A stretch of DNA of 64,000 bases from an uncultured bacterium (GTDB lineage Bacteria; Hydrothermota; Tepidihabitantia; SM23-42). Made by a program: the position numbers. Location: assembly GCA_964419565.1 (NCBI GenBank), contig CAYQPW010000012.1, forward strand, positions 1-64,000. Reading direction: 5' to 3'. Shown here one piece after another: positions 45,001-51,000 of the stretch. Positions within the stretch are counted from its first letter, which is position 1. Every line of letters starts with the position of its first letter.

Positions 45001-48000
45001 GTCACGCAAGATATCTTCTGGGTCCAGAACAACGACATACTTCCACTTATGGCTCGAGGCAAATGGTTTAACCTGGGGCACACTCCTTGCCTTATCAACG
45101 CTGATCGCAAGCAGATTGATACCCAGCGAATCGAATTCATCATAGTATGGTTTCAATGCATCGAGTTCTTTAATACACATCTTGCACCACAAAGCCCAAA
45201 AACTCATGAAAACAGGCCCGTCAGCGAGCAACGAATCAAGACAGACTGTATTACCATCTACATCTTCAAGTGTGAAATCAGGTGCTGCTTGTACTTCTGC
45301 ATCATCGGCCAAGGAAAAGATAAGCGGCACCAAAAAAAACAAAAATAATTTCTTCATCTTATTCCTCCTGAAAAGAACTCCTGATTGACTGCATTACTTC
45401 TTTTGACACAGTATCTTGAACAAATACAACTGCAGTCATATAGTTCACCGGAATCGCATGTGCAAAGGTTAAAACTGTATCGAGCGTATCTGGATAGGTA
45501 AGCTCAAGCGGGAAAGCATAAAGCTGCTGACATACCTTGTAGAATGTTGTGTATGCGCCATGCAGACTGTCCTGCAAAATAGCGACATAGGCAATGATCT
45601 CGCCATCGGGTATCGTATCTGCGGTAATAATACTGAGATCTAAATTCCCGGTCGACGCTGAAGCAGTGGCATTATTTATGTAGAGATTAAAATAAGGTGT
45701 TGTCGTCCGTGACACTTCGATCGCCTGTCGAAAAACGCTGTCATAGTTCGTCGGATTCTGTTCCCAAACAAAGATCGTGCCGTCGAATATCACATACGGC
45801 GTCGTAAGTCCGGTATTATAAAATGATTCACGCGCCACCGCTATTGGATTCTGATAAGTATTATGGGGGTGATAAGAAATCACGATAAGCGTATCACCGT
45901 AGTCAGCTCCCACCGTATCAATGAGCGCTCGCTCCGCGAGTGCGCAAAACCCTCAGAAATCCTCAGTGAAAAGTTCTGCTAGAACAAAACGATCTGTAGG
46001 TTCGGGAAATTCAACTTCTGGTGCGTCAGAGCAAACACTAGAAAATAGTAAAATTGCTGTTAATGAACTAGATATCAAGGATTTTTTCATAAGCGAATTA
46101 TAGCAACAAAAAGTGCTTTGTCAATATGAAAGCAGATATTGTCCAATTGAGATATAAGGGGGTGGCATGCCACCCCCTTATATACAGGGATATTCCAAAT
46201 TAGTCTATGACAATGACTTTCTGAGTATCGCAATAATTATCCGCTTCTATTTTCACAAAGTATATGCCATTACTCACCTTATGTCCTGCATCATCCCGAC
46301 AATCCCAGGTCACGGTCGATTCCTTGCCAGATCCGGCAAATGACCGTACCAGTCGACCCGATGCGTCATAGATACTCAAATCGGCATTATCACCATGCCC
46401 AAGCATATAAGAAATGCGCACACCAGACTTAGCTATACTCGGAACAACATGAAAACTGCTCTCACATGGAGTCATCGCAGTTTCATATTCTTCGATCCCG
46501 GTTTGATCCGGCGGCCAGGTTGTATACCTGATCGCAAATTCGTCAGTGACCTCGCCGGCATTCATATGGTAAACATCATTGTAAAAGTATTCAATGCCAA
46601 GGTTCTCACCATTATTCTCAATGCCGAGAGTATTATCCCATTGCTGTTGTTCAACAAGGTACTGTACGATAATGTCACCGTCACCAGTGGGTGAAGGATA
46701 ATAAGCCGGATCATAGAATATGATCTCGAAAGTCTCCATAGCACCTGAAGGCCAGTGTTCCACCTGGAAATATTCGACGACAAAAATATGATTTGCCGCA
46801 TCATCATAATAATAAACATCACTCGGCGCATCGATATTACCTGGATCCAGGTCGTCCCATAAACCTGCGATCATCGCGTTGGGGCCATCAGGATGAGGAA
46901 TATTACTATTCGTCCAATCCACTACTGATGCTTGAGAACCCATTGCAATCCAACCGTTCGAACAGATCGAAACCTGGTTATAATTAGCCCCGTAATACAT
47001 GAAAGTAAATGGCAAAGATACCACAGAGGTCTGATTATCACCCAGATCCATGGATGTACCGGAATTAGCCGTCTGGGTCGAATCAATAGCGATCCAGTTA
47101 AAGACCGGGCAATTCAGGTGCGGTCCGCCTGAATAATAAGAATAGTAATAACCCGTATCTGTAGGAGCATTCTCACCGACGATAAGGGAAAAATATGACG
47201 TATCACAAAAGCCACCGTCAGCCACAGCGATGAGAGAGAACGCTATGGAAGCACCCTCGGGTGTGGATGGACTCGCAGTAACTGAATATGGATCCTGAGT
47301 ATTCTCTTTTATCGAATCGATCGGCAGACCACCAAAATACCCGGCGTCATCGTTTATCGTAATAAAAGATGAGGATGTATGAATAGTCGTTGAAAGGTTT
47401 GTCAGATCGGCTCCTCCGATATTAACGAGAGTCGCCGTAAAATCCGCCGTCTCTCCGGGATCGATCCGACCGTTTGCGTCGTATACCGTATTTTTGATCA
47501 AAACAAGATAGGGATCAACACCTTCATGACCAAGGATCACATCATCGGCGAAGACCTTCGCCGTTTCACTCGCCCCTCAGCAATGGATTACTGAATCAAC
47601 CAAGGTAACTTTGATCTTATCGACCTCACTTGCATCGACACCGGCTAGATTGGCTAATTCATCATATATATTGAACGTATAAGTGTGCCAGAGAGAATCA
47701 TATACCGCAATGATATGACAGGTCGGACCATCAGTCCAGGGGCAGTCACTACTGCGCATACATATCCGCGTATCTCCCAATGTAGTATTCGAAGCATCGA
47801 GATAACTGAGAATGACTGCTGCACCAGCCCATGCTCCGCCATAATTATCCCAAGCCCAGAGTTTTGCATTCACTTTAAAATCCAAATGCGTTGTCGGGAT
47901 ATCTGCTATCTGATAGAGCGTTGCATGACCGGTCGTGCCGCTCGCTTTGTAAAGATATATCTCATAGTCCGGGTCAGGATCATAAGTCGTTCCCCGTGTT

Positions 48001-51000
48001 ATCGAAGCAGAACCGTATGTCGATTGTGTCCAACCCACGGTCTGAACCTGTTCGAAATCGCCGTTTGTGATGTAGTTACTTGCAAAGCAAAGTCCAATAG
48101 CAATAATCAAGATGAAGCATTTTTGCATAATACCTCCTTTATAGTCAAATACCACTATCCTTCATGCCCTACTGAATAAATGGATAGTTTTTATACGAGA
48201 AACCCTAAAAAAATCACTGTGTTTGTCAATACATATAATTATATATACTATTAATTATTTGTCAAGACTTAAGCTTAATGGACGAAAACACCTGTAAAAA
48301 CAGCTCGTTAACTAGTTAATCCTATTTCACAATTAGTTTCCCGGATATCCTTTTCGCATCGGCGATAAACTCATAAAGGTATACACCGGAACCGACTTTT
48401 TTACCATTGTTCGTAATCAGATCCCAGTCGACTATCGTGTTTTTACCTGCTGCGATACCTTTCAAACCTTTTACCTGGCGACCCAGGATATCATAAATTG
48501 TAACTCGATATTCAGTACCAGCCGGTAATTTGACCGCGAATTCTACCCGGTCACGGCACGGATTAGGATTGAGACTGAATTGAGCGTCTACTAGATCGAA
48601 ACATGTTTCCTCGATGCCGAGCTCGGTTACTTTTTTTATAGCTCCCTGCCATATCTCCTTGGTCGAATCCACTTGCATGCTATCATTCTGTATCCACACC
48701 AGTATCTTGCAATAATTATCATTCCAGCGTGAGTTTATCGCAAATGGTTGGGTCACGATTTCATAGTTACCAGCTGATATCGAGACCATCGTACCATTAT
48801 GATCCGGTAAGTAATCACGGGGAACATGATTGTGCCAATCAACGCCGTTTGGCGCCATATAAAAAAGACTATCTTCAGTAATGACAATGATAACCCTGCC
48901 ATTGATCGTCGCCGTAGAATCATTTTGCAGATAGACATTGACCGTACCCTGACCAGTACCCGGTGTATAATCTCCCCACATCGCTATTGTAACAGGAGCA
49001 GGCATAGCCATACGAGCGGTTATCAACCCTTCCCAACCAAAGTAGTTAAAACCACCATGCTGGTCACCATCATACCACAACCACGGTTCAAAATACACCC
49101 CGGCAAATGGCGGGGGATAATAATGTATGCGCTGGTATGCTTCTTCTAAATAGAAGGAATCTGTAGAGATGTAATGTACATCAACCGCAGCAACGCGGCC
49201 AGAATATGTCGCTGCGATCTGAGCCAGTGTCCCACTGGCTGCTCCGCAGTCGGTTCATGACTCATCGCCGATCATCTCGCAGACAACGACACGTTCTGCT
49301 GCAGAACCAGTTTGTACAAATAACAGGCACATGATCATACTGATGAGTACTTTGTATAGTCCACGCATAATATCTCCTCTCATTTTTTTTAATTATACAC
49401 GACACAAACAAAGTGTCAATATAGATAAGTCATTTTCAAAAAAAAAGAGCCCATTGTATCTGATAACGGGCTCTTTTTTACGACAGCTATGGTTACTTAA
49501 TAATTATCTTGCCGGATGAATCAAAGACATCACTTTGAAACTTAAAAAGGTAAACACCAGCACTCAAATGTGCTCCCTGTTCATTGGTAAGATCCCAAGT
49601 AACAGCTTCCTGAACGCGCTGTGTGATACCCTGCAGGTTTTTAATATGACGCCCTGCAACATCATAAATATCTATCCGGTACCCTGTGTTGACCGGCAAT
49701 TCGAATTGAAATACCGTCCGCTTGACGCAGGGGTTTGGGGATAAAGTCACGCCGTAACTGGCAATAACCTGTGTCTCCCCCTCTTTAATGCCGATCATGT
49801 CCATAATATGTTTAATGCCGCCTTGCCAGACCTCTCTGGTTGAATCTGCCTGATACTGAGTATCATGGATCATCGTAATAATATCGCACTTGTTCTCGTT
49901 CCATCCAGCCTGGATTGTAAATGGATAAGTCACGGTCACTGAATCACCTGCCGGGATTGAAACCGACTGGCCATTCTGATTAGGGATATAATCGCGCGCT
50001 ACATGATTGTGCCAGGGATCTCCGTTCGGTCCGGTATAGTATAAACTGTCTTCAGTAATCACATACAGAATTCGCCCGGATAGCGTCGTGGAACCATCAT
50101 TACGAAATTGTGCATTTATTGTACCACTTCCATCGGTCTGGCTATAATCACCCCACATAGTTACGGTTACGGGCGAAGGTATAGCCATGCGGGTCGAGAT
50201 CTTTGACTGCCACGTTGAATAAGTGTAAGACCCGTGTTGATTACCATCGTACCATAACCATGGTGTCGCATAACCACCACTGTATGGAGGCAGGTATGTG
50301 TACATACGCTGCCGTGCTTCTGCGCAGTACAGCGGGTATGAAGAAGCAATATGCATCTCCACGACGGCGACTCTCCCCGGATAATTAAGGGCTATTGCAT
50401 CCAGTGTCCCACTGGCATATCGGCAAGAACCTCAGCCCTCCTGGTAGAGCTCTTCACAGACAACGACACGCTCTGCTGCGTGAGCCATATTGACCATCAT
50501 CACTCCTAATATGACAAACAAACCCAATGTCATTGAACCTTTCATGCGAACTCCTTCCCGCCTGTTCTTCAGGCGATCTTTCCTTCTTATGTAATTCTAT
50601 AGACAATGGGTAAAATGTCAAGTGCTAATTAGCAGGTAGCTGCAAATCGCCATTCACAAGACTTTGCAATCTACCTTATTACTATCGGGCTTGACAGATT
50701 CCATACTATAGTTACAATTAGCTAATGGGAACAAGGGGAAATTAACGCCCTGCAACCAAGTTCAGAATAAAGATAGTGCTTATCCTATCATTATGTTGCA
50801 TGGAGATGTTTTACGGAGATAATGTACATGACCGACAACAAAAGACGCCATCATGATGCATTGGTAAAATTACGTAGAAAAATCACGCAACTAGCGCAGG
50901 AAAAATCAGAGCTCAGGATACGCTGCCAGGAGTTGAGAAAAGAAAGCGCGATCTGCAGACTTATATATAAAATCAATGAAGCGATAAACAAGGGTATAGC

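What a model noticed while it worked through the whole genome (the two positions that open the first line are those of the whole stretch)
46200..48128. New secreted selenoprotein family C: N-terminal beta-sandwich with HCU motif and protein-altering SECIS covariation
g1232+g1231 (642 aa, Sec184) and g1667+g1666 (C20:29179-31083, Sec186) share a Sec-bearing N-terminal beta-sandwich on swappable C-terminal domains and a T9SS tail. The SECIS stem is kept even where paired changes alter both encoded residues.
Evidence so far: 41 of 49 order genomes; 30 of 30 sampled loci have TGA and the hairpin versus 7 of 90 controls; loop GGTC in 28 of 29; pairs A-T to G-C and G-C to A-T change codons (Lys to Glu with Phe to Ser); sorting domain over TIGR04183 cut-off; domain pLDDT about 80-95.
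(Added by a program. Inside this text positions count along the whole contig: contig position 1 is position 1 of the stretch shown here. "Call 12" and the like, gene names such as g00115 and contig names such as C1 are that model's own, and its searches are not shown. The text may have been shortened before it was handed on; [...] marks where a part breaks off. The agent that wrote the report below was given it as the finding of a first reader that could run no searches.)

Follow-up and report, generated by a model that had tools for sequence, protein, structure and literature searches.

The report
Secreted lectin-fold selenoprotein family
What databases list as two separate genes is one reading frame interrupted by a conserved UGA codon and RNA hairpin, most likely a new family of selenium-containing proteins that uncultured WOR-3-type bacteria are predicted to export, with the selenium likely acting as a redox switch on a fold otherwise known from sugar-binding modules.

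Summary
Confirmed, with corrections. Window 48128..46200 (-) is one 642-codon frame with TGA at codon 184; the C20 paralogue has it at 186. The genome has selA, selB, selD and tRNA-Sec, and uses TGA as an ordinary stop. All 116 distinct TGA loci fetched carry the same hairpin (loop GGTC 113, GGTT 3), versus 0 of 350 true TGA stops; the genome's HdrA genes use the same loop. Five inner pairs hold in 116 of 116 loci through synonymous and residue-changing swaps (K/F, E/F, E/S, R/L, W/Y, Q/C). The domain is a predicted CBM-like jelly roll (pLDDT 96, Z 15) whose last strand lies after the TGA. It has no Pfam/NCBIfam family and is absent from a 2026 inventory table. It occurs in 91 of 251 phylum genomes, 85 with selB, and rarely has Cys homologues. 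Corrections: 'HCU' is not the motif (19 of 116; CU 87); G-C to A-T swaps are synonymous; some members lack the T9SS tail. Sec decoding about 93% likely; function inferred, most likely an exposed Sec-Cys redox pair (about 45%). No experimental data.

The parts
48133..48138 (-). Ribosome-binding site AGGAGG, 4 nt before the ATG
   Evidence: same spacing in the C20 paralogue
46200..48128 (-). Whole frame, 642 codons with one in-frame TGA (annotated as two ORFs, 47577..48128 and 46200..47540)
48081..48128 (-). Predicted N-terminal signal peptide, residues 1-16 (by inspection; no predictor run)
   Evidence: sequence; leaders of 16-23 residues in most loci
47526..48080 (-). Sec domain, residues 17-201, predicted CBM-like (galactose-binding-like) jelly roll; starts NGDFE, ends ADD; Cys123, Cys129, Cys137, Cys183
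47577..47579 (-). In-frame TGA, predicted Sec184, in the loop between the last two strands (model loop 166-171 = residues 182-187)
47546..47563 (-). SECIS-like hairpin: 7-bp stem, 4-nt loop GGUC at 47556..47553, 20 nt after the TGA; encodes T-A-K-V-F-A-D of the last strand
47172..47522 (-). Ig-like module (DPGE motif), residues about 203-319, shared by most members and by other secreted proteins of the genome
46509..47171 (-). Exchangeable middle module, residues about 320-540, all-beta, NIDO-like by the PF06119 hit on a homologue; no clear solved-structure match
46209..46418 (-). T9SS type A sorting domain, residues 571-640
   Evidence: 37.2 bits, cut-off 23
48322..50545 (-). Context: two Omp28-like UxxC candidate selenoprotein genes with T9SS tails (TGA at 49257 and 50434)
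42255..46087 (-). Context: Omp28-like UxxC protein (TGA 45955), TlpA/ResA-like redoxin, DUF6029, NapH-like 4Fe-4S protein
1162..1251 (+). tRNA-Sec (TCA) in the same window
   Evidence: 77.6 bits, gathering 47

Best explanation
The gene is one frame with an in-frame UGA and a conserved downstream hairpin, most likely decoded as selenocysteine, giving a predicted exported protein whose lectin-like N-terminal domain likely carries a reversible selenocysteine-cysteine redox pair on an exposed loop. Steps: (1) shown: frame, UGA, hairpin, selABCD, conservation; (2) inferred, about 93%: SelB reads the hairpin and inserts Sec184, completing the last strand of the jelly roll; (3) predicted: signal-peptide export, then a T9SS-like route (SprA, PorV, PorU present) brings the protein to the surface, the Ig-like and middle modules acting as spacer or adhesin; (4) inferred, about 45%: Sec pairs with Cys183 (or, in members without it, with a Cys on the neighbouring loop, alignment column 83), with Cys129 nearby, and cycles between selenenylsulfide and selenol, acting on oxidants or disulfides at the cell surface; the neighbouring Omp28-like UxxC proteins, TlpA/ResA-like redoxin and NapH-like 4Fe-4S protein would supply the electrons.
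For: Decoding: selA, selB, selD, tRNA-Sec over cut-off; TGA is a normal stop here (394 of 1281 long ORFs); hairpin in 116 of 116 loci vs 0 of 350 true stops with this loop; HdrA, a known selenoprotein, has GGTC-loop hairpins in this genome; pairs 1-5 intact in 116 of 116, pair 2 seen as A-U 76, G-C 29, G-U 9, U-A 1, C-G 1, never Lys with Ser; synonymous constraint: Val codon only GTC/GTT and Lys/Glu codon always ending in G in 87 of 87, against background GTC 0.35, AAG 0.47; 113 of 115 and 118 of 148 database proteins stop just before this point; the strand after the TGA is the last strand of the fold; no conserved restart codon after the TGA (38 of 87 have none in 30 codons); 85 of 91 family-bearing genomes show selB, against 6 of 147 selB-negative genomes carrying the family. 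Redox role: all 115 scored loci keep a Cys at -1, column 83 or column 113; 25 of 29 lacking the -1 Cys have the column-83 Cys vs 9 of 86 that have it; column-113 Cys in 240 of 293 Sec-type vs 6 of 17 read-through homologues; 26 of 76 loci have Omp28-like, TlpA or DUF6029 genes within 4 kb; stand-alone domains exist.
Against: No protein, RNA or activity data. On the tree the Cys exchange rests on few independent events (7-8 changes; 2 supported pairs, uninformative), and the K/F-E/S covariation reaches only 5 supported pairs (sign test p 0.06). 50 of 76 loci show no redox neighbour within the DNA held, and the C20 paralogue has none. 17 of 148 homologues read through without Sec, several with no Cys in the loop, so the fold has a Sec-independent role. 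CU motifs are read by others as metal ligands (bioRxiv 2022.07.06.499078, section 29). The domain is not thioredoxin-like.
Confidence: 0.45

Rival explanations
1. Sec is inserted, but the loop is a soft-metal site (Cu, Zn, Hg, Ni or similar): Cys-Sec plus Cys129 and nearby His residues chelate a metal at the cell surface for capture, sensing or detoxification.
For: CU in 87 of 116; 9 of 116 have another Cys 3-6 residues after Sec; Cys-rich cluster, His138 in 268 of 293; Haft and Gwadz argue CU/CC motifs bind heavy metals.
Against: His182 is variable (19 of 116); His138 is also kept in 14 of 17 non-Sec homologues, so probably structural; no metal transporter recurs among neighbour clusters; conserved neighbours are thiol-redox proteins.
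Confidence: 0.25
2. Sec is a structural or anchoring chemical handle: it cross-links surface proteins (Se-S or Se-Se) into a coat, or locks a ligand-binding loop of a true carbohydrate-binding module.
For: Up to 9 copies per genome with at least six exchangeable C-terminal modules; best fold matches are CBMs and tailspike CBM-like domains; conserved Trp100 and Trp131.
Against: A plain Cys would do for a static bond, yet Cys replacements are rare; below Pfam CBM_4_9 cut-off; no glycoside hydrolase domain found among 21 scanned partners and homologues.
Confidence: 0.15
3. The UGA-SECIS is mainly a selenium-dependent on/off switch: without selenium a 183-residue fragment lacking the last strand and sorting tail is made, so surface modules are exported only when selenium is available.
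For: The TGA precedes all cargo modules and the tail.
Against: Stand-alone members end 18-24 residues after the TGA; partner Cys residues track with the Sec.
Confidence: 0.08
4. The TGA is a real stop or is read as Trp/Cys by leakage; two separate proteins are made, and the hairpin has another role.
For: Databases hold the two halves separately; single records show W (P0002), L (P0234), A (P0153) or P (P0145 = locus L140, no TGA) at this place.
Against: Always TGA, never TAA/TAG, in 116 of 117 complete matches; downstream frame always open; fold needs the downstream strand; fits the bSECIS model; tracks selB.
Confidence: 0.07

Closest known systems
Bacterial selenoproteins with a coding-region SECIS (bSECIS model; e.g. 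HdrA, SelD, FdhA)
   Same: In-frame UGA, hairpin 17-23 nt downstream with G-led loop, selABCD; same GGTC loop as HdrA in this genome (model as in PMC13188914).
   Different: No row of Table 1 of PMC13188914 is a CBM-like or T9SS-tailed family; Cys homologues are rare, whereas that review says nearly all selenoproteins have them.
CBM4/CBM16/CBM61/CBM70-type galactose-binding-like modules; CBA120 tailspike TSP4 C-terminal domain (5w6h)
   Same: Jelly-roll fold, Z 15.0 (rmsd 2.4, 142 aligned) to 5w6h, Z 12.6 to CBM16 2zew; NGDFE start and AD(D/N) end; weak PF02018 hits in 12 of 31.
   Different: 10-21% identity, below Pfam cut-off; longer Cys-bearing loops; Sec in the last hairpin; sugar binding untested.
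CU-motif selenoproteins (SaoL, SaoB, SaoC, HgcA, KCU-star, MbdU)
   Same: Vicinal Cys-Sec in 87 of 116; found truncated at the Cys in databases, as SaoL was.
   Different: No match to their NCBIfam models; different fold; a quarter of members lack the vicinal Cys.
Omp28-related selenoprotein NF045500 (GOS_C)
   Same: Exported selenoprotein; distant relatives flank this gene (41 bits, cut-off 200).
   Different: Those carry UxxC; this family shows no hit to the model and has a jelly-roll fold.
T9SS type A cargo proteins
   Same: Leader peptide plus C-terminal sorting domain; genome has SprA, PorV, PorU over cut-off.
   Different: Carries Sec; host is outside Bacteroidota; PorM/GldM not found with an uninformative control; no paper on WOR-3 T9SS listed.

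Membership tests
Bacterial selenoprotein (UGA/bSECIS) | In-frame UGA with homology continuing past it | tested here: met
   116 of 117 complete matches have TGA and an open downstream frame; 149 of 150 listed phylum matches show 1 TGA
Bacterial selenoprotein (UGA/bSECIS) | selA, selB, selC, selD in the genome | tested here: met
   selB in 85 of 91 family-bearing genomes
Bacterial selenoprotein (UGA/bSECIS) | Hairpin: loop 3-9 nt with G in first two positions, stem 4-16 bp, 16-37 nt from UGA, MFE at or below -7.5 | tested here: met
   4-nt GGUC loop, 7 bp, 20 nt, -9.7 kcal/mol; criteria from PMC13188914 Fig. 2 legend; loop and spacing met in 116 of 116
Bacterial selenoprotein (UGA/bSECIS) | Cys-containing homologues aligning to the UGA (usual, not universal) | tested here: inconclusive
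   17 of 148 representatives read through; Cys aligns well in P0199, ambiguously in P0169, P0191, P0197; others have A, P, L, G or S
Bacterial selenoprotein (UGA/bSECIS) | Selenium shown in the protein | not testable with these tools
   needs labelling or mass spectrometry
CBM_4_9-like carbohydrate-binding module | Galactose-binding-like jelly-roll fold | tested here: met
   (predicted model)
CBM_4_9-like carbohydrate-binding module | PF02018 gathering score | tested here: not met
   14.3 bits vs 25.9; best E 0.0035 among 31
CBM_4_9-like carbohydrate-binding module | Binds carbohydrate | not testable with these tools
   glycan array needed
T9SS type A cargo | C-terminal sorting domain over TIGR04183 cut-off | tested here: met
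   absent in stand-alone members
T9SS type A cargo | Translocon and processing genes SprA, PorV, PorU | tested here: met
T9SS type A cargo | PorL/PorM motor and PorK/PorN ring | tested here: inconclusive
   only GldM tried; no match and no control rang
Omp28-related selenoprotein NF045500 | Model score over cut-off; UxxC motif | tested here: not met
   no hit for the window protein or 31 domains
Described CU-motif selenoprotein families (Sao, HgcA, KCU-star, MbdU) | Match to their NCBIfam models | tested here: not met
   none among 31 members at E up to 1

The most novel reading that the evidence does not exclude
WOR-3 and related anaerobes coat their surface with a selenium-based redox layer: T9SS-exported modules bearing Sec on a lectin-type jelly roll, recharged by a dedicated outward electron path (NapH-like 4Fe-4S protein, TlpA, DUF6029, Omp28-like UxxC selenoproteins). 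It would be the first selenoprotein family on this fold and one almost without Cys counterparts, a class that Cys/Sec-pair searches miss.
Probability: 0.3. Interest if true: 0.8.

Novelty: new variant of a known kind. Interest (0 to 1): 0.62.

Why it matters
It adds a widespread, multi-copy selenoprotein family on a fold not listed among known prokaryotic selenoproteins, and shows that hundreds of database entries are mis-split at one codon. Because Cys versions are rare, it tests the assumption behind Cys/Sec-pair discovery methods. The 116 loci give an unusually clean natural mutagenesis of a bacterial SECIS (five pair types at one position, three spacer lengths) that can be tested directly in a SelB reporter. 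It also points to extracellular selenium chemistry in uncultured sediment bacteria.

Tried and rejected
Alternative genetic code (TGA = Trp/Gly): rejected, TGA ends 394 of 1281 long ORFs and tRNA-Trp is CCA. Re-initiation after the TGA: no conserved start, and the annotated GTG at 47540 directly follows the hairpin with no RBS. 'HCU' as family motif: rejected (19 of 116). PDB sequence search with the domain profile: no match at E up to 10. Fold search for the middle module: only the Ig-like part (model 1-117) was matched, the rest barely tested. Careful tree did not finish; FastTree used, too few supported independent pairs for significance; one fragmentary locus was left out of the first tree, two out of the second, one out of the Cys count. 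RNA runs: no RNA holder listed. GldM: no match, control silent. Earlier findings of the scan: nothing returned in three look-ups. No ESM Atlas comparison was obtained, so look-alikes there remain unchecked. No complex prediction was run. Literature searches that listed no paper on this family. BSepDB Table S2 (family list) was cut from the supplement held; refs 64 and 66 of the 2026 review (further new families; a groundwater MAG screen) were not seen and could contain it.
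Full report
Observation. Under table 11 the region holds two ORFs on the minus strand, 47577..48128 and 46200..47540. 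Reading TGA through gives one 642-codon frame with a single TGA at codon 184, in the context V-I-H-C-[TGA]-G-A-S-E-T-A-K-V-F-A-D-D. A strong RBS precedes the ATG at 48128, none precedes the GTG at 47540. A second copy lies on contig C20 (31083..29179, TGA at 186). The genome (96% complete) has selA, selB, selD and tRNA-Sec over their cut-offs, the tRNA in this window. TGA is otherwise an ordinary stop: 394 of 1281 ORFs of 250 codons or more. Relatives' record titles name WOR-3 and Stahlbacteria, with further hits titled Cloacimonadota, Eisenbacteria, Krumholzibacteriota and Thermoanaerobaculales; the window's lineage is inferred from these.

Distribution. The domain is found in 41 of 49 order genomes and 91 of 251 sampled phylum genomes, 1-9 copies each; 149 of the 150 listed matches have one TGA, 71 more were not listed. 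selB was found in 104 of the same 251; 85 of the 91 family genomes are among them, and the six exceptions are drafts of 120-360 contigs searched at a strict threshold. Kin are not independent, so this is a pattern, not a test. In five genomes the gene lies within about 10 kb of selB. In protein databases 113 of 115 hits end just before the TGA position and two are shorter fragments; of 148 new representatives 118 end there, 13 are other fragments and 17 read through.

The hairpin. From all loci fetched, 117 complete distinct matches were found; 116 have the TGA and one (L140) does not (distinct by a 120-nt key, so close strains are included). All 116 have a 4-nt loop GGTC (113) or GGTT (3), 17, 20 or 23 nt after the TGA, moving in codon steps with loop length. 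Pairs 1-5 are intact in 116 of 116, pair 6 in 114. Pair 2 joins the first base of codon 191 to the second base of codon 193 and occurs as A-U 76, G-C 29, G-U 9, U-A 1, C-G 1, giving K/F 67, E/S 29, E/F 9, W/Y 1, Q/C 1; pair 1 gives R/L 8; K/S is never seen. Pair 3 varies at third positions (G-C 100, A-U 13, C-G 2, U-A 1), almost all synonymously, which protein-level selection cannot explain. In 87 loci the Val codon was only GTC or GTT and the Lys/Glu codon always ended in G, against background GTC 0.35 and AAG 0.47. Pair 2 changes at least 18 times on a FastTree built without those columns, but only 5 independent pairs lie on supported branches (4.9 concordant on average, p 0.06). Residues 191 and 193 are two apart on one strand, so some protein-level coupling cannot be excluded. 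Controls: 0 of 350 likely true TGA stops have this hairpin, 1 of 350 a weak GG-loop one. Positive control: two HdrA genes of the genome have TGA in a C-x-x-U context and GGTC-loop hairpins 26-27 nt downstream. In the one non-TGA locus the first loop G is an A (single case). The element meets the bSECIS criteria given in PMC13188914.

The protein. AlphaFold2 on 31 domains (Sec as Cys) gives a 12-strand sandwich with one short helix, mean pLDDT 96.1; the Sec lies in the loop between the last two strands, so a stop at the TGA would remove the final strand. Nearest solved folds are CBM-like jelly rolls: 5w6h Z 15.0, 5x7o 13.6, 8xmz 13.4, CBM16 12.6, at 12-17% identity. No Pfam or NCBIfam model reaches cut-off and no PDB sequence matches. 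After it come an Ig-like module, a middle module and a sorting domain. Among 87 loci the middle modules fall into six clusters (48, 10, 8, 8, 7, 1): the window's is NIDO-like by a hit on homologue P0358, others have weak propeller-repeat or MAM-like hits, and the commonest looks flavodoxin/GATase-like by inspection only. Some members join the domain directly to the tail, and some stand alone, three with lipobox-like leaders by inspection. The same modules occur without the Sec domain elsewhere in the genome, so the Sec domain is a plug-in unit. SprA, PorV and PorU are present; GldM was inconclusive.

Motif. His-Cys-Sec occurs in 19 of 116, Cys-Sec in 87. Of 115 scored loci, 25 of 29 without the -1 Cys have a Cys on the loop at alignment columns 80-84, against 9 of 86 with it, and the remaining four keep the column-113 Cys. 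In 293 Sec-type sequences (many assumed from truncation) the split is 49 of 71 vs 30 of 222; Cys at column 113 is in 240 of 293 but 6 of 17 read-through homologues. In jelly rolls these loops lie side by side at one end (recalled topology; coordinates unavailable). The tree gives 7-8 changes and no significant independent support. Clear Cys-for-Sec homologues are rare: P0199 fits, three are ambiguous, others have A, P, L or W.

Context. The gene sits in a same-strand run: two Omp28-like UxxC genes, this gene, another Omp28-like UxxC gene, a TlpA/ResA-like redoxin, DUF6029 and a NapH-like 4Fe-4S protein. Homologues of these lie within 4 kb in 26 of 76 loci (17 of 42 with full flanks), the TlpA-DUF6029 block in 10. 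The C20 copy has other neighbours.

Reading. Sec decoding is about 93% likely. For function I favour an exposed Sec-Cys redox pair recharged by the neighbouring thiol-redox chain (0.45) over a soft-metal site (0.25), a cross-link or locked lectin loop (0.15) or a mere selenium switch (0.08). A vicinal Cys-Sec redox pair is known from mammalian thioredoxin reductase (recalled); the metal reading follows Haft and Gwadz.

Prior art. Seen: PMC13188914, parts 1-4 of 10 including Table 1, plus a term search: no CBM-like or T9SS-tailed family. PMC13326102: passages and the first part of the supplement; Table S2 was cut. bioRxiv 2022.07.06.499078: passages and section 29. Nine searches listed no paper on this family; subscription journals are not covered. 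Exported bacterial selenoproteins are already listed in that table (ExtKL, a TonB-dependent receptor, SaoB, NF045500), and a coding-region SECIS must constrain residues, so neither is new alone. New are the family, its fold, its near lack of Cys versions and its scale. Verdict: real, new variant of a known kind, interest 0.62.

Noticed in passing
window 49493..50545 (-), 48322..49383 (-), 45359..46087 (-); G000:C19:13144 (+): Omp28-like proteins with in-frame TGA in UxxC motifs (EGUGSC, ESUTDC, FUGFC); two have T9SS tails and hairpins; below NF045500 cut-off. The one at 45955 has a GCAC-loop hairpin closer to the TGA.
   Followed up: partly
G000:C1:88466 (+), C6:98433 (-), C10:11060 (-), C24:1910 (-), C26:15827 (-): Further TGA-plus-hairpin candidates in secreted-looking frames (GCU/SCU with loop CGGGT, ASUC, FRCUG in a module resembling the C20 middle module, DGUG); possible other selenoprotein families.
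   Followed up: no
window 42255..45357 (-): TlpA/ResA-like, DUF6029 and NapH-like 4Fe-4S genes form a block; TlpA-DUF6029 recurs beside the family in 10 of 76 loci, a possible outward electron path.
   Followed up: partly
window 38181..42209 (-): An 873-aa protein with a weak M50-like N-terminus followed by enolase C- then N-terminal domains in swapped order, directly upstream of a normal enolase.
   Followed up: no
G000:C8:23186 (+): SelD has TGA after about 119 codons of upstream frame (open frame 468 aa), suggesting an N-terminal fusion; its hairpin has an AGTTA loop.
   Followed up: no
P0002 (residue 183), P0234, L140: Homologues with W, L or P in place of Sec; W may be a TGA translated under another code by a gene caller or a true TGG.
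   Followed up: partly
L102, L107, L148, L149: Stand-alone Sec domains ending 18-24 residues after the TGA, three with lipobox-like leaders, two in tandem with a full-length copy.
   Followed up: partly
G000 whole genome: Six PorV-family genes over cut-off, SprA, PorU and dozens of sorting-domain proteins but no GldM match: possibly a reduced or divergent T9SS.
   Followed up: partly
G236:C176:2155-2823 (+): The selB match here has one TGA inside and an open frame of only 230 aa.
   Followed up: no
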